Sequence record: MT446423.1
Direction: 5' to 3' (one strand)
DNA: 64,000 nt
Source: Escherichia virus TH58
In this document: positions 5,871 through 14,835 of the stretch, piece after piece
Position numbering within the stretch: the first letter of the stretch is position 1
Layout: each line of letters opens with the position of its first letter
The notes under the pieces: generated by a model
Told to the model about the DNA's origin: nothing
The model's database searches: none
The model's input: only the letters and a program-made list of their open reading frames with translations
Position numbers and translations under genes: made by a program

Positions 5871-6215
5871 ATGAAAGGCAATATTTATTTGGTAGTTCAT
5901 GATTTAACGTTTTATTTTAACGAACAGGATACAGTTATTTCCGACCGGTTGATTAATTCGTTATATCAACACGCTGATTACGTTTATTTTAAAAATGAAT
6001 TCGGACATTGGAAGTTTCTTAAAAACCGTTCCGGGTTAACTAGTTTTGAATACTTTGACCGTAAAGACCTTTTAAACGAAATCCCATTGCAACATCGGTT
6101 CCAGAAACGCGAATCATTATATTATTGCCGTCATATACCAAACGCAGAATGTGCTTATGAAGCGATTAATCTATGGCGTCGGCGTCGAGAACAAATTGAT
6201 GATATGCCAAAATAA
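5871..6215 (+). CDS. Hypothetical protein
   Basis: ATG 5871 with GAGGA RBS; the upstream part of track ORF 5823..6215 overlaps tRNA-Arg and is discounted. Confidence 0.5.
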   Translation: MKGNIYLVVHDLTFYFNEQDTVISDRLINSLYQHADYVYFKNEFGHWKFLKNRSGLTSFEYFDRKDLLNEIPLQHRFQKRESLYYCRHIPNAECAYEAINLWRRRREQIDDMPK

Positions 6216-6522
6216 GAAACCGGGTCGCTACCGGTAAGTCGTCGGACTGATGTTCCCTGGAGTATAGTTCCTCCCACAGTTTTACTGTGTTCTGGTTCTT
6301 TACTATCACAGCTGAAACGGCGCACAGAATTATCGATTCGAGGAAATATCTTTGCCGTAAGCCGAGTAGCGTTTTTGACGGAACGTTCGGATATGGTCGA
6401 GATATGGCCTTTTAAAAATATTGAGTAGCGTCAACTGCTTAATAACCGGGTTCGAATCCCGGCGTTTCGTACAAACACTTGCCTTAGCAGGTGGAACCCC
6501 GACAAGGTTGCCGCAAGGCATA
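6216..6522 (+). ncRNA. Candidate structured small RNA region (positional analog of T4 tRNA-associated stable RNAs)
   Basis: About 300 nt with no credible + strand ORF, GC-richer than surroundings, tRNA-like T-arm CCGGG-TTCGAAT-CCCGG at 6446-6462, ends at a strong terminator. Confidence 0.3.
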
Positions 6523-6554: not shown

Positions 6555-6596
6555 GGCATAATAAATAGATAAGTTAATTAACTTAGGAAAAGCAAC

Positions 6597-8024: not shown

Positions 8025-8066
8025 GCTCTCGTTGGATAATAAAACCACCAATTGAAAGGTAATAAT

Positions 8067-8660
8067 ATGAACACACTAAAGAAACTTGTTGAATTCATCC
8101 GCACTAAACTGGGTACTGCTATGGCTAAAAATCTGACTGTCGAAGAACAGTATAACGCAGCCGCAGATAAGTTGATTACCCAAATCAAAGAACTAAAAAC
8201 GGCTTCTGTTAAATCTATTAATGAAGAAAAACGTATTCGCGAACTTGCTAATGAAAAGAACAAGCAAGCTGCTTCTAAGGAACGTGAAATTCGTAAGCTC
8301 CTGGCTGAAGGACAAGATGTTACCATGCATGCTAAGCTTGGTCTTCTGTATCGTCGAACTGCCGAACAACTTAATACAAAAGCTGCCGGGTATGCCGCTA
8401 TGCGAATTGAAATTGCTCGTAAGGTGGTTGAACTTGATGATGCTCGTCAGAATCTGGCAATCAAACTCGAATACATTCGTGAAACTCGAGCAGCTAATGC
8501 CCTTGGTATCTCTACGGCTGATGATGTAATTGAAATCGCTGCACTGACTAAGGTTGATATCGAAGACACTCTGACTCGTGTTGAAACGTTCAATGGCACT
8601 CCAACCGGTGTCGAAACCACTTCTGCTGATGTACAAGAATATATTAACTCTTTGAAATAA
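8067..8660 (+). CDS. Coiled-coil protein, function unknown
   Basis: ATG 8067 after AAAGG; heptad-rich, K/E-rich sequence; 197 aa. Confidence 0.5.
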
Positions 8661-8709
8661 AATAATACGGAGGACTCCGGTCCTCCTTTTGGATAATAAA
8701 GGAGTTAAC

Positions 8710-9306
8710 ATGCGAAACCAAAATAATGATATTGACTCGATGTTCGAAGAGTTCCGAAATAAGGTAAATCCACCTACGTCTTTAGTTGATTCATTACGAT
8801 ATATTGCAACTGGACGTAAATGGTACTGGTCGTCTTCTTATGAGACAACTGAATATGCAAATAACCGAAAATCTTTATTAGCCCCAGGTATTATGATTCA
8901 TGATATCGGAGCTATTGCTAAACTAGTTGCAGACCATGATATTAGATTCACTGATTTCGTTGCTCCTACGTGGTCTGTTTGTTGTTTAAACACTGAATGG
9001 GACTATATCAGTGAACGCTCTGAAGATTATTATGGTTTTAGAGATAAGCTCTTAAGGTCTAACATGTTTTATATCGATACTGAAGTCCTAGTCGATAATA
9101 AAAAATATTACTTTACGTTAATCGTCGATTCTGAAACTATGTATGAAGGCAAGCCTTTGCTTAAAAGAGTTGATGCTTTAAGTGCTATTGATGCGCTTTA
9201 TGAAACTATGGTTGTTAGTCCTAATTTCACTAACAATTTAATCCTTGAGCAATTTATTATGGAATGTAGAGAATATGTCAAAGCCAACCCTATACATGCC
9301 AAGTAA
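8710..9306 (+). CDS. Hypothetical protein with C-terminal QFIMECR motif
   Basis: ATG 8710 after AAGGAG; C-terminal region shares the motif of the junction-cassette family. Confidence 0.55.
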   Translation: MRNQNNDIDSMFEEFRNKVNPPTSLVDSLRYIATGRKWYWSSSYETTEYANNRKSLLAPGIMIHDIGAIAKLVADHDIRFTDFVAPTWSVCCLNTEWDYISERSEDYYGFRDKLLRSNMFYIDTEVLVDNKKYYFTLIVDSETMYEGKPLLKRVDALSAIDALYETMVVSPNFTNNLILEQFIMECREYVKANPIHAK

Positions 9307-9670
9307 GCCCTGGGCATACGAATACAAACGTAAATTAATTCCTAATGAAGTGTTGTTTGGTCCTATTTTAGCTTTAGCATTTTTAATCTTTATGATTATA
9401 GGAGCTATTTTAGATTCCAATAAAGTTATATCGTCTGATGCAGTGTTTTTACTTATTATAGTCGGGTCGTTTATTGTACCATTTTTATTAATGCCTATTA
9501 ACTGGGTGGGATATTGGTACCAAGGACGTCATCATAGAGCCCGATTAAGAGAATGGAAAGTTCAGTGCGCAAAAGCCCAAGCTCAGTATGACGAAGCTGT
9601 TAAAAAGTATGAATATGAAGAAGCTATGGAATTCGTTAAGGAAATAAGATGCAAAAGCCTCAACTCTTAA
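9275..9670 (+). CDS. Small membrane protein with C-terminal EFVKEIRCK motif
   Basis: Two predicted TM helices; start assignment uncertain (ATG 9275 chosen). Confidence 0.45.
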   Translation: MSKPTLYMPSKPWAYEYKRKLIPNEVLFGPILALAFLIFMIIGAILDSNKVISSDAVFLLIIVGSFIVPFLLMPINWVGYWYQGRHHRARLREWKVQCAKAQAQYDEAVKKYEYEEAMEFVKEIRCKSLNS

Positions 9671-10008
9671 CCGTATGGCCTTCTCTTGGTGAGAACATTC
9701 TAATTTTTATTATGAGTATTGGCATGGGATTTGCCTTTGGACTAGTTGGATTTCTTATTGACGGTGTTGTGTTAGGATTTATAGGGAACACCGGTGGATT
9801 CACAGACCAATGGCAGGACTTACGGTATACCCAAGCCTTTGCATCCATCGCATCCTTTTGTACTGTAGTCTATTTTTACTATGATTTTATAAGCCATAAC
9901 AAGAAAAATAAAAAGGTTTACGCTTCTCAAATGATTAGTTATAATGAACTCCTAGCTAGACGTGAAAATGAAACAATAGAAAACTTTATTAAGGAATGTA
10001 GAAAATGA
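9649..10008 (+). CDS. Small membrane protein ending ENFIKECRK
   Basis: AAGGA RBS; two hydrophobic helices; conserved C-terminal tail. Confidence 0.55.
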   Translation: MQKPQLLTVWPSLGENILIFIMSIGMGFAFGLVGFLIDGVVLGFIGNTGGFTDQWQDLRYTQAFASIASFCTVVYFYYDFISHNKKNKKVYASQMISYNELLARRENETIENFIKECRK

Positions 10009-10310
10009 GTAAGATTATTGAAATTAAAGTACCAGAGTTTAATGATGCCAAATCCGCTTCAGATGCAATTTATAAACTTCTGAATCAAGCTGAACGTATC
10101 GAAGAAGAGGCAACAAAGATCGCAGACCAATACGCCGTATCATTTTCTGTAGGTGATTATGGTAGCGGTCGTACTTATTATCCTAAGGGTGAAATCGTAT
10201 CCCAGTGGATGAAAGATGAAATTGAAAATAATGGTGGCGATGTTAAGCGTGAAGGTAATGGTTACGTTATTACTGAAGGTGCTTGGGTTTCGTCTTCTGC
10301 GTTGTGCTAA
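10005..10310 (+). CDS. Small acidic protein, paralog 1 of 3 (C-terminal GAWVSSSALC)
   Basis: Start overlaps upstream stop; shared C-terminal motif with the next two ORFs. Confidence 0.55.
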   Translation: MSKIIEIKVPEFNDAKSASDAIYKLLNQAERIEEEATKIADQYAVSFSVGDYGSGRTYYPKGEIVSQWMKDEIENNGGDVKREGNGYVITEGAWVSSSALC

Positions 10311-10321
10311 GGGGAATCATT

Positions 10322-10594
10322 ATGTCTAAAGAACAAACCGAACTGGCTGAAGCTGTAGCAAAAATCTATGCAGCTATTGAGGCTGCCAAAGAAATTGCTG
10401 ATAAACAAAACACAACATTCGACTTGTGTCCAGCTTATGGTATGGGCGGAACCTATCATTCACCCGGACAACTTAAAGCCGATCTTGAACGTTGTACAAA
10501 AAACGGCTATGCTGAATGGGCTGACGTTTACCAATACGACTACAATCTGAGCCTCGAAACTGGTGGTTGGATTGCATCTTCTCACACTTGTTAA
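10322..10594 (+). CDS. Small acidic protein, paralog 2 of 3 (C-terminal GGWIASSHTC)
   Basis: ATG 10322 after AAGGGG RBS. Confidence 0.55.
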   Translation: MSKEQTELAEAVAKIYAAIEAAKEIADKQNTTFDLCPAYGMGGTYHSPGQLKADLERCTKNGYAEWADVYQYDYNLSLETGGWIASSHTC

Positions 10595-10603
10595 GGAAAC
10601 CAT

Positions 10604-10801
10604 ATGTCTCGTGAATTAGATTGTGCTGTACGTACGGCAGTAGCTGCTCTGGAAAACCTGTTCCAAATTGCAACAGAAGAACGCGAAGAAGTTACATTAT
10701 GGATTGAAGATAACGCAGGTCTGAATCTCCAGAACGCAATCTCGGTATCAAATAATAGTATTACTGTTCAAGGCTGGGTATCATCTAGTTATTCTTGCTA
10801 A
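10604..10801 (+). CDS. Small acidic protein, paralog 3 of 3 (C-terminal QGWVSSSYSC)
   Basis: AAGGAAA RBS; same C-terminal signature. Confidence 0.55.
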   Translation: MSRELDCAVRTAVAALENLFQIATEEREEVTLWIEDNAGLNLQNAISVSNNSITVQGWVSSSYSC

Positions 10802-10805
10802 AACA

Positions 10806-10835
10806 GTTTACAACAAGATAGGGCTATGTTATAGT
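10806..10835 (+). promoter_or_regulatory. Early promoter GTTTAC / TATAGT with inverted repeat GGACTAT...TAGTCC
   Basis: GTTTAC 10806-10811, 18-nt spacer, TATAGT. Confidence 0.5.
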
Positions 10836-10863
10836 AGTCCTATCAAATTAAATGGAGTCCACA

Positions 10864-11103
10864 ATGATTTATTACGAAAGTGTTGGAACCAAAGTGGTTG
10901 GTAAAACCATTACTCGTGAAAAGTTTGCTAAGATATTCGATATGCGTTATAAAAAATCTGAACACAAAGGCATTCGATTCGAAGATGCGCACTGTACAAT
11001 TTGCCCTTATAATGAAGACATAAATGGTACAATCGTTCCATTGGTAGAGGCTTCACACGATGACCTCTGGGATGAATATGATATCGCATGTCGTGAAATT
11101 TAA
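10864..11103 (+). CDS. Hypothetical protein
   Basis: ATG 10864 after GGAG; 79 aa. Confidence 0.45.
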   Translation: MIYYESVGTKVVGKTITREKFAKIFDMRYKKSEHKGIRFEDAHCTICPYNEDINGTIVPLVEASHDDLWDEYDIACREI

Positions 11104-11131
11104 GTTAATGAATTAATCCGAGGAAAATATT

Positions 11132-12088
11132 ATGATGTTAGTTATTGGTTCTCGTGCACTTCACTATCACGGTCTTATTGATTCTAATGCTATCAAAAAT
11201 AGTGACTGGGACTTTATTGCAGACCAAGGTTCTTGGAATGCATTTAAAAATCAAATGATGGGTGTATATGTTCATCAAGATAACCCTGATGTCCAAGTTT
11301 TCAAATGCTTCCATAACGGACGCGAAACTCATTTTGAAGCATATATTGTTCCGGCAATCACTAATGTCCGTGAATTAGTAGGTGAACTCACTCCTGAAGA
11401 TTTCACGTCTTCTTATGACCTTTTAAAATACGCCAAGAAAAATTTGTCTAAAGATCATTTGAACGGGTTTTACTGGGCAACTCCTGAGATGTGTCTTGCA
11501 ATTAAGATGTCTCATCGTTTCAAGAAAAATAATCCATTCTTTTTAAAGACTATGAACCATATTCAGTATCTTCGTGGTAAAGGTGTTACACTGAACGATG
11601 AACTTACTGAAATTATGCTGAAACGCCAGAAAGAAACCTTGAACTATGCTCACCCAGTTCTTGACACTTCTAAAAGTGCGTTCTTTAAAGATGACATCTA
11701 TACTTATGACCATGATACTATTCATGAAGCCATTGCACTAACAGACCGTCCAGCGTATACATTTTATATGAAAGACGGTTCTGAAGTCATGACCTCACGT
11801 GAGAAGTTCGAATCATTACCAGAAATGGTCAAATTGGCCGGTGTATATGAAGAATCATGTGTACTAGCATTAGAACGTTCTCAGATTCCTAATGACTTTA
11901 AAATTAACCCTGAAGCCAGTTTTATGATGGCATTGGAAAAAGTCTGTACAAGCATCACCTCCGGTTGGTTCCGTGAGTACGCATACGAGAACTATTATGA
12001 AGTAGTGGCTATGTATCATAAGCTCGGCAAAAATGATTACGTCAAACGTTTCAAACAAAATTTCCATATGGTAAAACCTTTCAAATAG
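11132..12088 (+). CDS. Putative nucleotidyltransferase-fold protein
   Basis: N-terminal VIGSRALHYHGL...SDWDF resembles the GS-x(n)-DhDh signature of pol-beta-superfamily nucleotidyltransferases; GAGGA RBS; 318 aa. Confidence 0.45.
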   Translation: MMLVIGSRALHYHGLIDSNAIKNSDWDFIADQGSWNAFKNQMMGVYVHQDNPDVQVFKCFHNGRETHFEAYIVPAITNVRELVGELTPEDFTSSYDLLKYAKKNLSKDHLNGFYWATPEMCLAIKMSHRFKKNNPFFLKTMNHIQYLRGKGVTLNDELTEIMLKRQKETLNYAHPVLDTSKSAFFKDDIYTYDHDTIHEAIALTDRPAYTFYMKDGSEVMTSREKFESLPEMVKLAGVYEESCVLALERSQIPNDFKINPEASFMMALEKVCTSITSGWFREYAYENYYEVVAMYHKLGKNDYVKRFKQNFHMVKPFK

Positions 12089-12100
12089 TTTCGCAAAGCT

Positions 12101-12130
12101 GTTTACAACATGATAGGACTATGTTATAGT
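12101..12130 (+). promoter_or_regulatory. Early promoter GTTTAC / TATAGT with inverted repeat
   Basis: GTTTACAACATGATAGGACTATGTTATAGTAGTCCTAT. Confidence 0.5.
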
Positions 12131-12158
12131 AGTCCTATTAAAACATGAGGAGAATATT

Positions 12159-12464
12159 ATGAAATTAGGCGAAACCAACCGAATTGGTCTTTTAACAATA
12201 TTTGCATCACCTTTTTACGCAGCTCTTTCTGTTGCAGTATTACAAAAGGCTTACGATATGGATGGTGTTCCTGGTTTTGTATTCTTATCGCCGTTTTTGC
12301 TATTCGTTGGAGCATTGTTATTATATGCCACGACTAGTTTCGACCATAATGTCTGGGTCAATTATAAATGTAAATTGTCTGAAGAAGAACACGCGGAAGC
12401 TCGTAAAAAAGCTATTGAATCTACCAATCTAGAAAATTTCATTAAAGAATGTCGAGGAAAATAA
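12159..12464 (+). CDS. Small membrane protein ending ENFIKECRGK
   Basis: Two TM helices; conserved C-terminal tail. Confidence 0.55.
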   Translation: MKLGETNRIGLLTIFASPFYAALSVAVLQKAYDMDGVPGFVFLSPFLLFVGALLLYATTSFDHNVWVNYKCKLSEEEHAEARKKAIESTNLENFIKECRGK

Positions 12465-12465
12465 T

Positions 12466-13152
12466 ATGAATAGTTCTAAAGTGTTTAATAGTCAAGCTCG
12501 TGCAGTAGGTGGTTTTGCTCATGCGATTAAAAACGACCAGATTAAAAACGAGCCTATGTTCTTTAACTGTGATTTGAATTTTGCTTTTGATAATGGCGGC
12601 CCAATTACTCGTAGCTTTATCCAAAATCTTCCCGACGATTGGAAAGACTCGGATGTAGTATTTGATTCACGAGTTCACATGCTGATGCCTGGTTGGTATC
12701 CTGCTATTCCTGGATATCACCATGATGATGTTCCTCGCCCTGATATTCCAGTTGGTCAACACTTTATTACTGCAGGACAACCTGATTATGACAACCCTCG
12801 TTACCATTCTGAACATATTCTTGGTCTTGTTAACGCTGATGTGTGTCCTACTCATTTTGCAACAGGAACTGCAGAGTTCAGTCAGATTCCTGATGGCGAA
12901 CTTATCTATCGCCAGTGGCACAAAGAAGTCCTCGAAAAAATCGAAAAAGGCGAACTAGAGAAATGGGAAGCTCCAGATCATACTCTTCTTCAGTTTGATT
13001 GGCAAACATGGCACACTGGTTCTCGTGCAATTAGTAATGGATGGCGTTGGTTCGGCCGTGTATCTCGTAATACAGACCGAGTTAAAAAGATTACCAATGA
13101 AATTCGTGTCAACGCTCAAGTTTATCTGGAATTCCCTATGGAAGGCTGGTAA
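12466..13152 (+). CDS. Hypothetical protein
   Basis: 228 aa, start 2 nt after upstream stop. Confidence 0.55.
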   Translation: MNSSKVFNSQARAVGGFAHAIKNDQIKNEPMFFNCDLNFAFDNGGPITRSFIQNLPDDWKDSDVVFDSRVHMLMPGWYPAIPGYHHDDVPRPDIPVGQHFITAGQPDYDNPRYHSEHILGLVNADVCPTHFATGTAEFSQIPDGELIYRQWHKEVLEKIEKGELEKWEAPDHTLLQFDWQTWHTGSRAISNGWRWFGRVSRNTDRVKKITNEIRVNAQVYLEFPMEGW

Positions 13153-13631
13153 TGATTAACAATAATATAGACGATGGCAATGAAGGTATTTCATACTATT
13201 CAGTAGATTGGACAGGATGTCCATCCTACTTAGTGAAACATATTTGCCAAGAATTTAAAATCGACCAGCCAGCAGGTATTATCGTGAACAGATACATTAA
13301 TGGATATCAACCTATCGATGAAGTAATACGAACAACTCAAGCTGAGCTTGAAAGGTTTTTCAATAAGTGCCAATGGATAACAGGATGGATTATATTTGTA
13401 CCATCTATATGGTTTTTCAGTACTAAGGTGAGTTCTTTCGGTTTTGTTGATATTATTGCTATCTTATTAGCATCTAGTATCATAAGTGTTGTTGGTGGCA
13501 TCATCGGCGGCGGTACCGCCGCCATCATTATTAATCTTATTAAAAGTAGTTTACAAGAACATAAAGACAAGATAAAGGCCAAGAATAATGAAGTTGAACG
13601 TTTTATTACCGAATGCAGGAATTTGAGATGA
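13152..13631 (+). CDS. Membrane protein ending ERFITECRNLR
   Basis: Hydrophobic and Gly-rich TM region; conserved C-terminal tail. Confidence 0.55.
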   Translation: MINNNIDDGNEGISYYSVDWTGCPSYLVKHICQEFKIDQPAGIIVNRYINGYQPIDEVIRTTQAELERFFNKCQWITGWIIFVPSIWFFSTKVSSFGFVDIIAILLASSIISVVGGIIGGGTAAIIINLIKSSLQEHKDKIKAKNNEVERFITECRNLR

Positions 13632-13864: not shown

Positions 13865-14312
13865 GAAAAATAAAGTGAAAGAACTATCAGCCGGTATTAT
13901 TTTCCTTACCGAAGATAAAGAATTATTCATGGGGCGTGTAACTGGTTCTCGTCCTAAAGGTTCTTTAGCTCATCGGTGGGATATTCCTAAAGGTCATGTC
14001 GAGCCCGGCGAATCTCCTATTGAAGCCGCTATTCGTGAATGCGAAGAAGAAACTGGGTTTACACAATATGACCCTGCCTTCCTGAAAGACCTAGGTGAAC
14101 ATCGTTACTCAGACAATAAGAATATTCATCTGTTCCTATATACCATCCCTGTAGAGCACGAGCAATTCAGAAACAGTGTTTGTAATTCCTATCATACGTT
14201 CCCAGATGGTCGACAGATTCCTGAATTTGATGCATTCGCTTTAATTAAACCTTCTCAATGGGAATATGTAATGGGCAAATCATTATATAAGGTGCTCACT
14301 ACCATCCTATAA
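13857..14312 (+). CDS. nudE: Nudix hydrolase NudE
   Basis: Nudix box GHVEPGESPIEAAIRECEEETGF; 151 aa; adjacent to e as in T4. Confidence 0.8.
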   Translation: MSKKNKVKELSAGIIFLTEDKELFMGRVTGSRPKGSLAHRWDIPKGHVEPGESPIEAAIRECEEETGFTQYDPAFLKDLGEHRYSDNKNIHLFLYTIPVEHEQFRNSVCNSYHTFPDGRQIPEFDAFALIKPSQWEYVMGKSLYKVLTTIL

Positions 14313-14346
14313 GTAATAAATACCTCCTATAAACGTGGGAGGTATT

Positions 14347-14835
14347 ATGAATATATTTGAAATGCTTCGTAATGACGAAGGTCTTAGACTGTCTTTATAC
14401 AAAGACACTGAAGGCTTTTGGACGATTGGCATAGGTCATTTAGTAACAAAGAACCCGTCTTTAGCCGTAGCTAAAGCTGAACTTGACAGAATGATCGGAC
14501 GTAAATGCAATGGTACAATTACCCTTGATGAGGCTGAAAAGCTATTTAATGAAGACGTTGATAAAGCCGTTCGCGGAATCTTGGGTAATGCTAAACTTAA
14601 ACCGGTATATGATTCTTTAGATGCAGTTCGTCGATGTGCATTGGTCAATATGGTCTTCCAAATGGGTGTAGCAGGCGTCGCTGGTTTTACTAATTCTCTT
14701 CGTATGCTTCAACAGAAACGTTGGGACGAAGCGGCAGTAAATCTAGCCCAATCTAAATGGTATCGTCAGACACCTAATCGCGCGAAACGCGTAATCTCAA
14801 CATTTAAAACAGGAACTTGGAAAGCGTATATATGA
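14347..14835 (+). CDS. e: Endolysin (T4 lysozyme)
   Basis: [32 protein letters not shown]... is the T4 lysozyme N-terminus; 162 aa; GGGAGG RBS. Confidence 0.9.

What the first reader, a model, noticed from the sequence alone, without database searches (positions are those of the whole stretch)
8710..13631. Small-ORF family joined by a conserved junction cassette encoding a ...NFIKECR C-terminus
Five ORFs (ending at 9306, 9670, 10008, 12464, 13631), mostly small membrane proteins with otherwise unrelated bodies, end in (E/Q)(N/R)FI(K/T/M)ECR. The encoding about 30 nt (GAA AAY TTY ATT AAR GAA TGY AGR...) also supplies the RBS and start for the next gene. This looks like a recombination linker that lets ORF modules be shuffled while preserving translational coupling.
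Basis: seen in the sequence. Interest (0 to 1): 0.6.

Follow-up and report, generated by a model that had tools for sequence, protein, structure and literature searches.

The report
Shared C-terminal tail of T-even e-cluster proteins
Five neighbouring early genes of this T4-like (RB69-type) phage encode proteins ending in the same short peptide (…F-I-x-E-C-R), which marks a gene family kept in a row in T4 relatives; the peptide looks selected as protein, and its codons also carry the ribosome-binding site of the next gene.

Summary
In the 64 kb window FIxECR occurs four times in six frames against 0.03 expected. All four lie within 11 codons of the stops at 9306, 10008, 12464 and 13631. The ORF ending at 9670 has a degenerate copy, FVKEIR.

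The window is a Mosigvirus. The ORFs are homologs of T4 e.5, e.4, e.3 and e.2, plus an extra paralog D.

The tail phi-[E/N]-x-F-[I/V]-x-x-C-R recurs on 3-6 genes, mostly consecutive, upstream of nudE in six Tevenvirinae genera (27 tails). Five Arg codons, both Cys codons and both Phe codons are used, so selection acts on the peptide.

The next gene's Shine-Dalgarno sequence lies inside or just after the motif in most junctions, in two registers, and biases codon choice towards AGR and AAG.

The 2-TM bodies appear to be remote paralogs, not unrelated. As DNA the junctions share only 7-10 nt words, which is background level.

One natural deletion, loss of e.2 in many Tequatroviruses, has its crossover inside the tail codons (TGCAGGAAA). 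The "recombination linker" idea is therefore a demonstrated side effect, not the reason for conservation. The tail's biochemical role is unknown. My best guess is a cytoplasmic amphipathic docking or assembly helix.

The parts
8710..9306 (+). ORF A, homolog of T4 e.5 (198 aa, soluble), the leading gene of the array
   Evidence: Matches phrog_2607 at E 4e-95. No TM segment. T4 e.5 ends ...LEKFVKECREYVKAITIPSK. The AF2 model has pLDDT 62 and puts the tail in helix 177-192.
9253..9270 (+). Tail motif FIMECR of ORF A. The start of ORF B (ATG 9275) lies 4 nt after the Arg codon.
   Evidence: GAATGTAGAGAATATGTCAAAGCC is identical in T4 because two reading frames overlap here.
9275..9670 (+). ORF B, homolog of T4 e.4 (131 aa, 2 TM)
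   Evidence: Matches phrog_2604 at E 6.5e-62. TM segments at 27-45 and 57-75. T4 e.4 ends ...MKFVKESRCKSQS.
9632..9649 (+). Degenerate tail FVKEIR of ORF B. The SD TTAAGGAA (9636-9643) serves ORF C, and the last base of the Arg codon is the A of ORF C's ATG (9649).
9649..10008 (+). ORF C, homolog of T4 e.3 (119 aa; one TM segment passes the hydropathy threshold, and a second hydrophobic stretch at about residues 62-80 is read by eye from the sequence)
   Evidence: Matches phrog_2330 at E 9.9e-50. One TM-like segment at 17-35. tblastn identity is 97-99% in Mosigvirus, 35-39% in Tequatrovirus and about 30% in Dhakavirus.
9985..10002 (+). Tail FIKECR of ORF C. It contains the SD TTAAGGAA (9989-9996) for the gene starting at 10005, with an ATGA stop/start overlap.
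10005..13151 (+). Block of about 3.1 kb lying between e.3 and e.2. It is absent from T4, where e.3 abuts e.2. It holds three W-x-S-S-x-x-C-ending ORFs, two PeSL-like repeats, a DUF7277/DUF7275 gene, ORF D and ORF 12466-13152.
   Evidence: Dhakavirus IME08 has a comparable block.
12159..12464 (+). ORF D, an extra tail-bearing 2-TM paralog (101 aa); all database homologs found here come from Mosigvirus-like phages
   Evidence: Matches phrog_9798 at E 4e-68, with a weak cross-hit to phrog_2203 (the e.2 family) at E 0.0019. hhalign against e.3 gives 84% probability. IME08 has a different gene at this position.
12438..12455 (+). Tail FIKECR of ORF D. The Arg-Gly codons CGA GGA form the SD (12453-12458) for the gene starting at 12466.
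13152..13631 (+). ORF E, homolog of e.2 (159 aa): an N-terminal soluble domain, then 2 TM segments, then the tail
   Evidence: Matches phrog_2203 at E 8e-49. RB69 annotates the ortholog as e.2. Full-length Tequatrovirus e.2 ends ...NNFITECRKLK.
13602..13619 (+). Tail FITECR of ORF E. The Cys-Arg-Asn codons TGC AGG AAT give the SD CAGGAA (13616-13621) for the gene starting at 13628, with an ATGA overlap.

Best explanation
The 'junction cassette' is the 3' end of a gene family kept mostly in tandem: the T4 e.5-e.4-e.3-e.2 cluster plus extra paralogs such as ORF D. The members keep one short C-terminal peptide, phi-[E/N]-x-F-[I/V]-x-x-C-R, followed by 0-15 residues.

Shown:
- The peptide is conserved by selection on the amino-acid sequence across six Tevenvirinae genera.
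- It sits on soluble leader proteins of 180-270 aa and on small 2-TM proteins.
- In this window and in the T4 genome it is confined to this one cluster upstream of nudE.
- Because genes here abut or overlap, the same 18-24 nt also hold the Shine-Dalgarno sequence and sometimes the start of the next cistron. There are two registers: [I/V]-[K/E]-E read as TT(A/G)AGGAA, and C-R-x read as CAGGAA or CGAGGA. Codon choice in the tail is skewed accordingly.

Inferred:
- The C-termini of the membrane members are cytoplasmic, because basic residues follow the last TM segment.
- The tail forms an amphipathic helix with phi(-3), F, I and C on one face.
- The tail serves as a common docking or assembly element. 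It either ties the products of the operon into one membrane-associated complex or presents them all to one partner.
- The family grew by tandem duplication of a unit running from start codon to start codon. That would explain why every copy keeps its tail next to the following initiation region.
- The short in-phase repeats occasionally mediate microhomology deletions or fusions that keep frame and coupling. This is a by-product.
For: Non-random and local:
- FIxECR occurs 4 times against 0.03 expected, all near stops in 9253-13619.
- In the whole T4 genome F[IV]x[ED]CR occurs 3 times, and e.4 adds FVKESR. All four are in e.5, e.4, e.3 and the frameshifted e.2 remnant.

Deep conservation as protein:
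- 27 tails were collected from Mosigvirus, Tequatrovirus, Dhakavirus, Jiaodavirus, Karamvirus and Kagamiyamavirus.
- Residue counts are F 25/27 (plus 2 W), I/V 27/27, C 20/27 and R/K 27/27.
- Codons used are Arg AGA 9, CGT 5, AGG 4, CGA 3, CGC 2; Cys TGT 10 and TGC 10; Phe TTT 17 and TTC 8.

Possible paralogy of the bodies:
- hhalign gives e4-e3 full length E 7e-5, e3 to the e2 C-half E 4e-7 (93%), and e3-D 84%.
- e.3 and e.4 share the N-terminus M-x-K-P-x-L.
- 2-TM members of other genera cross-hit phrog_2203.

Double duty of the codons:
- The SD lies inside the motif, or overlaps its Arg codon, in 11 of 12 junctions first examined, and starts within it in about 20 of 25 overall.
- AGR codons are 13/23 against 21.5% genome-wide (p = 2.7e-4). 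AAG for Lys at position x1 is 7/12 against 26% (p = 0.017).

Other:
- The tail is predicted helical in the e.5 model, residues 177-192.
- There is no RNA structure at the junctions; z runs from +1.0 to -0.8.
Against: - No experiment or structure shows what the tail binds.
- The e.2 model failed (pLDDT 38). The e.5 model is only moderate (pLDDT 62) and has no informative fold match.
- The paralogy calls rest on 1-4-sequence alignments of TM-rich proteins, where compositional bias can inflate scores. Probabilities are 63-93%, not 99%.
- e.5-type soluble proteins share only the tail with the membrane members. Two bodies, Dhakavirus phrog_8788 and Karamvirus phrog_29231, have no detectable relatives among the others. 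The tail must therefore have moved onto new bodies at least sometimes.
- Codon bias shows that part of the constraint is at nucleotide level.
- e.4 lacks the Cys at the canonical position.
Confidence: 0.6

Rival explanations
1. Selected recombination linker. The repeated roughly 24-nt cassette is maintained because it lets gene modules be inserted, deleted or swapped in frame while keeping translational coupling. It would be a coding-region analogue of the PeSL cassettes.
For: - Loss of e.2 in many Tequatroviruses has its crossover inside TGCAGGAAA, the Cys-Arg-Lys codons. It removes exactly 485 nt and keeps the ATGA overlap with nudE.
- 23 of the 40 best-listed records carry the joined form.
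- The number of tail genes varies from 3 to 6 between genera.
- The same tail sits on bodies with no detectable homology, phrog_8788 and phrog_29231.
- The Mosigvirus/Dhakavirus block starts exactly after the e.3 tail.
Against: - Conservation is at amino-acid level with free synonymous variation.
- Junction pairs in the window share exact words of only 7-10 nt, equal to background.
- Only one breakpoint inside a tail was found. Other rearrangements seen, the e.3 body deletions in LF82-1 and FL31 and the OLB35 duplication, have breakpoints outside the motif.
- The e.2-less form may be one event spread by descent.
- A DNA joint does not need F, I, C and R to be kept across six genera.
Confidence: 0.12
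2. RNA-level translation-initiation or coupling element. The sequence is conserved mainly as the ribosome-binding region of the next gene (U-rich tract plus SD plus spacer), and the peptide is incidental.
For: - The SD of the next gene is inside the motif, or overlaps its Arg codon, in most junctions.
- AGR and AAG codons are enriched.
- The distance from the motif to the downstream start is narrow, -1 to +10 nt in most cases, whereas the distance to the gene's own stop varies from 0 to 15 codons.
- Natural e.3 body deletions keep the last 30 codons, including the tail.
Against: - The SD occupies two different registers, and lies outside the motif in the leader genes of Dhakavirus, Karamvirus and Kagamiyamavirus, yet F-I-x-x-C-R is kept.
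- Arg is kept with CGT or CGC, which add nothing to an SD.
- Cys and Phe third positions vary freely.
- The junctions have no RNA structure.
- In tightly packed T-even operons any C-terminal motif would overlap the next SD. This is established knowledge of T4 gene packing; ATGA overlaps are visible.
Confidence: 0.12
3. Co-translational (nascent-chain) regulator. The tail pauses the ribosome while it covers the next gene's SD and start. Membrane insertion of the last TM segment, which lies 25-45 residues upstream, relieves the pause and so sets the hand-over to the next cistron.
For: - The architecture resembles monitoring substrates such as MifM and SecM (own knowledge): an N-terminal TM region, a conserved C-terminal peptide and a downstream cistron immediately after.
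- The TM-to-tail spacing of about 25-45 residues is read.
- Position is fixed relative to the downstream start.
Against: - No stem-loop sequesters the downstream SD.
- Soluble e.5-type proteins carry the same tail.
- The distance to the gene's own stop codon is variable.
- There is no sequence similarity to any known arrest peptide, and no pausing data were available.
Confidence: 0.05

Closest known systems
T4 genes e.5, e.4, e.3 and e.2 (also deposited as msp4-msp7, GenBank L13089): early genes of unknown function upstream of nudE and e
   Same: Window ORFs A, B, C and E are their homologs by profile match and gene order. The T4 proteins end in the same tail.
   Different: The window has about 3.1 kb inserted between e.3 and e.2, including a fifth tail-bearing paralog, D. 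The T4 reference e.2 is frameshifted and its tail is unannotated. I found no paper describing the shared tail. The precomputed Pfam tags put e.4, e.5 and e.2 in three separate families: PF26873, PF26876 and PF26896.
[quoted passage not shown] 2010, PMC2839356; Comeau et al. 2014, PMC4122927)
   Same: Both are short repeated sequences at gene boundaries in hyperplastic regions of T4-type genomes, and both end with the SD and start of the next gene. Recombination between copies removes or moves gene modules. One such deletion is seen at the tails.
   Different: PeSLs are intergenic and consist of a sigma-70-type promoter plus a stem-loop. They are long enough for homologous exchange. The tails are coding, have no promoter or hairpin, share at most 10-nt exact words, and are conserved as peptide. 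PeSL-like repeats do occur in the same window, at 10800-10847 and 12095-12142.
Translationally coupled, overlapping cistrons (ATGA overlaps, SD inside the upstream ORF)
   Same: All five junctions have the downstream SD inside the upstream coding sequence, with stop/start overlap or close proximity.
   Different: Ordinary coupling does not require a conserved peptide. Here the same peptide recurs at 27 junctions in six genera.
Shared C-terminal docking tails of T4 proteins, for example the clamp (gp45)-binding C-termini of gp43, gp33 and gp55 (own knowledge, not tested here)
   Same: A short C-terminal peptide shared by otherwise different proteins of one phage, presumably to reach one common partner.
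   Different: The sequences are unrelated. The partner for the F-I-x-x-C-R tail is unknown, and most carriers are membrane proteins.
Arrest or monitoring peptides (SecM, MifM, VemP; own knowledge)
   Same: The upstream ORF has an N-terminal membrane or secretory segment and a conserved C-terminal peptide just before the regulated cistron.
   Different: No SD-sequestering RNA structure, no sequence similarity, soluble carriers exist, and stalling has not been tested.

Membership tests
T4 e.5 / e.4 / e.3 / e.2 orthologous groups (PHROGs 2607, 2604, 2330, 2203) | Full-length match to the family profile | tested here: met
   A matches phrog_2607 at 4.2e-95, B phrog_2604 at 6.5e-62, C phrog_2330 at 9.9e-50 and E phrog_2203 at 8.2e-49. 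D matches a separate family, phrog_9798, at 4.1e-68.
T4 e.5 / e.4 / e.3 / e.2 orthologous groups | Position between the e.6 homolog and nudE / e (lysozyme), same strand and order | tested here: met
   The e.6-like ORF is at 8052-8660, then come A, B and C, then E, with the Nudix hydrolase ORF ending at 14312 and lysozyme at 14335-14835. RB69 labels the ortholog of E as e.2.
Paralogous 2-TM + tail superfamily (proposed here) | Similarity between members that extends beyond the tail | tested here: inconclusive
   hhalign gives e4-e3 over 1-125/1-118 (E 7e-5, 63%), e3-e2 over 32-119/76-157 (E 4e-7, 93%) and e3-D over 46 residues (84%). PHROG cross-hits to phrog_2203 are at E 1e-4 to 7e-3. The alignments are small and TM-rich. 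An exhaustive HMM search found only the same four families.
PeSL recombination cassettes | Sigma-70-type -35/-10 promoter within the repeat | tested here: not met
   no promoter-like site coincides with any tail. The 10/12 matches with TG are at 10807-10835 and 12102-12130, which are the PeSL-like repeats.
PeSL recombination cassettes | Stable stem-loop (terminator or attenuator) in the repeat | tested here: not met
   MFE of the 75-nt junction windows is -2.3 to -11.5 kcal/mol, with z from +1.0 to -0.8 against shuffles.
PeSL recombination cassettes | Intergenic repeat long and similar enough for homologous exchange | tested here: not met
   The tails are coding. The longest shared exact words are 7-10 nt against a background mean of 7 and 95th percentile of 9. 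The PeSL-like pair is 48 nt at 90% identity.
PeSL recombination cassettes | Indel breakpoints between related genomes fall in the repeat | tested here: inconclusive
   One clear case: the e.2 deletion with its crossover in TGCAGGAAA. Other rearrangements have breakpoints elsewhere. No genome-wide breakpoint statistics were possible.
Translationally coupled operon | Downstream SD and start inside or overlapping the upstream ORF | tested here: met
   One search covers the 5 window junctions and one search covers 25 junctions in six genera. No promoter is annotated between T4 e.5 and nudE in L13089.
Translationally coupled operon | Downstream translation depends on upstream translation | not testable with these tools
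   Needs reporter fusions with premature stops in the upstream gene.
Ribosome-arrest / monitoring peptides (SecM, MifM type) | Downstream SD sequestered in an RNA structure that a stalled ribosome opens | tested here: not met
   no significant structure. The SD lies under the ribosome that decodes the tail.
Ribosome-arrest / monitoring peptides (SecM, MifM type) | Peptide-dependent elongation or termination arrest | not testable with these tools
   Needs toeprinting or ribosome profiling.

The most novel reading that the evidence does not exclude
The F-I-x-x-C-R tail acts while still in the ribosome. Decoding it places the ribosome exactly over the next cistron's SD and start, and a peptide-dependent pause sets a stoichiometric hand-over of ribosomes along the e.5-e.4-e.3-e.2 operon. 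For the membrane members the pause would be relieved by insertion of the last TM segment, 25-45 residues upstream. For the e.5-type proteins it would be relieved by folding. This would be a phage-encoded, repeated arrest or coupling peptide. It would explain why the motif is fixed relative to the downstream start and not to its own stop.
Probability: 0.05. Interest if true: 0.8.

Novelty: new member of a known kind. Interest (0 to 1): 0.35.

Why it matters
The e.2-e.5 genes are among the many conserved early genes of T-even phages with no known function. Protein databases split them and their relatives into at least 13 PHROG families and several separate Pfam families. A single conserved C-terminal peptide that unites soluble and membrane members across six genera gives a concrete experimental handle. 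One can use the tail as bait to find the partner, mutate F, I, C or R, or delete the whole array.

It is also a clean natural example of dual coding, where a selected peptide and the next gene's ribosome-binding site share the same 18 nt in two alternative registers. It further shows how an in-phase coding repeat can give frame-preserving and coupling-preserving gene loss. It does not establish a new recombination mechanism.

Tried and rejected
- **Tail-centred profile search** of the 5.8-billion-protein database: only 117 candidates, all fragments of the same e.x families.
- **Exhaustive HMM search** of 1.84 billion representatives with the 2-TM + tail module: 10 hits, all the same families. 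It did not reach even the Dhakavirus members, so it says little about distant relatives.
- **IMG/VR locus search** with e.3: only 5 loci.
- **Pfam, NCBIfam and PDB sequence searches**: nothing for the tail-bearing ORFs.
- **AF2 of e.2**: failed, pLDDT 38.
- **RNA hairpin at the junctions**: rejected.
- **An in-frame ATG inside GAA-TGY as an alternative start of the next gene**: true for e.2 to the next gene, but not for the other junctions (read), so rejected as a general feature.
- **Chimera P0017 (phage OLB35) as a second tail-mediated recombinant**: the record is UNVERIFIED, the junction lies upstream of the motif, and it looks like a mixed assembly, so it was not used.
- **Literature searches** for e.2-e.5 or msp4-7 function: nothing found, and the T4 genome review is not held.
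- **Slopekvirus and Pseudotevenvirus**: no tail array upstream of nudE.

Full report
**What the window is**

The region is 95.9% identical to Escherichia phage HX01 and similar Mosigvirus (RB69-type) genomes. Gene order and profile matches identify the ORFs:
- ORF A (8710-9306) is T4 e.5.
- ORF B (9275-9670) is e.4.
- ORF C (9649-10008) is e.3.
- ORF E (13152-13631) is e.2; RB69 annotates it so.

A small ORF, nudE and the lysozyme gene e follow. In T4, e.3 abuts e.2. In this window about 3.1 kb (10005-13151) lies between them and contains ORF D (12159-12464).

**Checking the observation**

FIxECR occurs four times in the six-frame translation of the 64 kb, all on the + strand between 9253 and 13619. 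Each is at most 11 codons from a stop. Randomised sequences give 0.03 on average and never more than 1. ORF B has the degenerate FVKEIR. ORFs B, C, D and E have predicted TM segments and A has none.

**The motif outside the window**

T4 e.5, e.4 and e.3 end ...LEKFVKECREYVKAITIPSK...MKFVKESRCKSQS and ...MKEFVIDCRKIK. In the whole T4 genome F[IV]x[ED]CR occurs three times:
- in e.5,
- in e.3,
- in an unannotated 45-codon frame between e.2 and nudE (...NNFITECRKLK*).

Other Tequatroviruses have an uninterrupted e.2 of 154-162 codons ending in that tail. The T4 reference e.2 is therefore a frameshifted copy.

Dhakavirus IME08 and phage LQ5 carry the tail on three genes. Between the e.6 homolog and nudE, the more distant genera carry it on more:
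- Jiaodavirus on four genes,
- Karamvirus on six,
- Kagamiyamavirus on four plus one frameshifted copy.

Slopekvirus and Pseudotevenvirus RB43 have no such array upstream of nudE.

Over 27 tails the pattern is phi-[E/N]-x-[F/W]-[I/V]-x-x-[C]-[R/K], followed by 0-15 residues. Counts are F 25 (plus 2 W), I/V 27, C 20 and R/K 27.

**Peptide or nucleotide conservation?**

Among the 27 tails Arg is written AGA (9), CGT (5), AGG (4), CGA (3) and CGC (2). Cys is TGT (10) or TGC (10), and Phe is TTT (17) or TTC (8). ORFs C and D differ at 4 of 24 nt, all synonymous.

Nucleotide identity between the window's junctions is 42-83% in the 24-nt core and 17-44% in the flanks. The longest exact words they share are 7-10 nt. 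Random 120-nt pairs from the window share 7 nt on average, with a 95th percentile of 9.

The junctions have no significant RNA secondary structure. The primary constraint is therefore on the amino-acid sequence.

**The link to the next gene**

At all five window junctions and in T4 and IME08, the best anti-SD match for the downstream gene lies inside the 18-nt motif or overlaps its Arg codon, in 11 of 12 cases. Two registers exist:
- Register 1: TT(A/G)AGGAA, from the [I/V]-[K/E]-E codons, with the start -1 to +4 nt after the Arg codon.
- Register 2: CAGGAA or CGAGGA, from the C-R-x codons, with the start +8 to +10 nt after it.

The pattern holds for about 20 of 25 junctions across six genera. 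The exceptions are mostly the leader (e.5-position) genes, whose tails continue for 7-15 residues.

Codon usage shows the double duty. AGR codons make up 13 of 23 Arg codons against 21.5% genome-wide (p = 2.7e-4). AAG makes up 7 of 12 Lys codons at position x1 against 26% (p = 0.017).

In these tightly packed operons, however, any C-terminal motif would overlap the next initiation region. Arg is kept even when it is written CGT or CGC and the SD lies elsewhere.

**Are the bodies unrelated?**

Pairwise BLAST finds only the tails. Profile comparison goes further:
- e.4 aligns to e.3 over the full length (E 7e-5).
- e.3 aligns to the C-terminal half of e.2 (E 4e-7, 93%).
- e.3 aligns to D (84%).

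e.3 and e.4 also share the N-terminus M-x-K-P-x-L. 2-TM members from other genera cross-hit the e.2 family profile weakly. These scores come from small, TM-rich alignments and are suggestive, not conclusive.

The soluble leader proteins of Tequatrovirus/Mosigvirus, Jiaodavirus, Kagamiyamavirus and Karamvirus cross-hit one another. The Dhakavirus leader (phrog_8788) and a Karamvirus 131-aa protein (phrog_29231) share only the tail with anything else.

The tail thus marks at least 13 PHROG families. Most are plausibly divergent paralogs kept mostly in tandem, and a few probably acquired the tail by fusion.

**Recombination at the tail**

One Tequatrovirus locus, L007, which is identical to Yersinia phage ZN18, lacks e.2. 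Its e.3 reads ...EFVIDCRKLK* and then runs directly into nudE. Comparison with T4 shows the crossover lies within TGCAGGAAA, the Cys-Arg-Lys codons shared by the e.3 and e.2 tails. The deletion removes 485 nt and keeps both the frame and the ATGA overlap.

The joined form is common: 23 of the 40 best-listed records have it in one piece. Because e.2 is present at this position in Mosigvirus, Dhakavirus and other Tequatroviruses, this is a deletion and not an insertion.

Other rearrangements do not use the motif. LF82-1 and FL31 have an internal deletion of the e.3 body that leaves the last 30 codons. The odd OLB35 duplication is in an UNVERIFIED record and its junction lies upstream of the motif.

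The window also contains PeSL-type cassettes at 10800-10847 and 12095-12142. They are 48 nt long and 90% identical, and hold TTTACA-17-TATAGT plus a hairpin. This is the known recombination and regulatory element of T4-type hyperplastic regions (PMC2839356).

The tails fail the three structural PeSL criteria tested here (promoter, stem-loop, long intergenic repeat). The breakpoint criterion is inconclusive.

**What the tail probably does**

Basic residues follow the last TM segment in the membrane members (sequences). Their C-termini should therefore be cytoplasmic, the same compartment as the soluble e.5-type carriers.

On an alpha-helix, phi(-3), F, I and C fall within a 100-degree arc and the charged residues lie opposite. 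This follows from the sequence. The e.5 model places the tail in a terminal helix, residues 177-192.

I infer a shared cytoplasmic amphipathic helix. It would either assemble the operon's products with one another or dock them all onto one partner. Nothing tested here identifies that partner. Pfam, NCBIfam, PDB sequence and fold searches gave nothing usable.

**Verdict**

The feature is real and non-random. It is the conserved C-terminal peptide of the T-even e.2-e.5 gene family, doubling as the ribosome-binding region of each following gene.

The recombination-linker reading captures a real but secondary property. I found no description of the shared tail in the searchable literature. It is a modestly interesting, testable handle on a set of function-unknown early genes. 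It is not a new kind of genetic element.

Noticed in passing
window 10005-10310, 10322-10594, 10604-10801: Three tandem small ORFs (phrog_899 twice, phrog_4882) all end in G-W-[V/I]-x-S-S-x-x-C*: ...GAWVSSSALC, ...GGWIASSHTC and ...QGWVSSSYSC. Karamvirus L020 4147-4431 and 4440-4673 end ...GVWLSSSDMC and ...GSVWYTSSC. This is a second tandem family recognisable mainly by its C-terminus.
   Followed up: partly
window 10800-10847 and 12095-12142: A 48-nt direct repeat, 90% identical, containing TTTACA-17-TATAGT with a TG and a hairpin (TAGGACTA...TAGTCCTA) overlapping the -10. This is a PeSL-type early-promoter/stem-loop cassette. The pair brackets ORFs 10852-11103 and 11132-12088 (DUF7277 + DUF7275).
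   Followed up: partly
L002 / T4 genome about 67491-67651 (- strand), between e.2 and nudE: The T4 reference e.2 (102 aa) is a frameshifted copy. The unannotated downstream frame encodes ...KIFDEKKYAQNLNNFITECRKLK*, the normal C-terminus of the e.2 of 154-162 codons seen in other Tequatroviruses. The T4T record lists e.2a and e.2b.
   Followed up: yes
L007 8334-8363 (same as Yersinia phage ZN18 and many other Tequatroviruses): e.2 is precisely deleted (485 nt) by a crossover within TGCAGGAAA, shared by the e.3 and e.2 tails. The e.3 product now ends ...FVIDCRKLK* and overlaps the nudE start.
   Followed up: yes
L008 about 2470-2590 (LF82-1); L009 about 2480-2600 (FL31): Natural Mosigvirus variants have most of the e.3 body deleted and frameshifted (MQKPQLKLCCLRFSND*). 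They retain the last 30 codons, including the tail and the RBS of the next gene.
   Followed up: partly
L018 2440-2790 (phage OLB35, UNVERIFIED record): The e.4 3' end and the e.3 3' end are duplicated, giving a chimeric ORF (P0017) with an e.3 fragment fused to the e.4 tail. The junction is at ...ATCGAA|GCTGTT..., upstream of the motif. This is probably a mixed-population assembly.
   Followed up: partly
window 13341-13373 (ORF E residues 64-74): The internal sequence AELERFFNKCQ, just before the first TM segment, resembles the C-terminal tail VERFITECR (BLAST E 0.73). It could be a relic of a fusion of two tail-bearing genes. It is not conserved in T4 or Dhakavirus e.2.
   Followed up: partly
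window 8669-8686: A terminator-like hairpin, GGAGGACTCCGGTCCTCC followed by TTTT, sits between the e.6 homolog and ORF A. The T4 record L13089 annotates a stem-loop at the same place, after msp3 (e.6).
   Followed up: no
L020 7457-7768; L021 7461-7766: The gene following the tail array in Karamvirus and Kagamiyamavirus ends ...DFKLSDFLEEKV* or ...DFNLYNFVEAF*. This is an acidic/hydrophobic C-terminus of a different type.
   Followed up: no
L021 6178-6568: In Kagamiyamavirus EcS1 one array member is split. The body is in ORF 6178-6516, and the tail (...ISDALEFITYVKK*) is in another frame ending at 6568. This is either a frameshift or a sequencing error.
   Followed up: no
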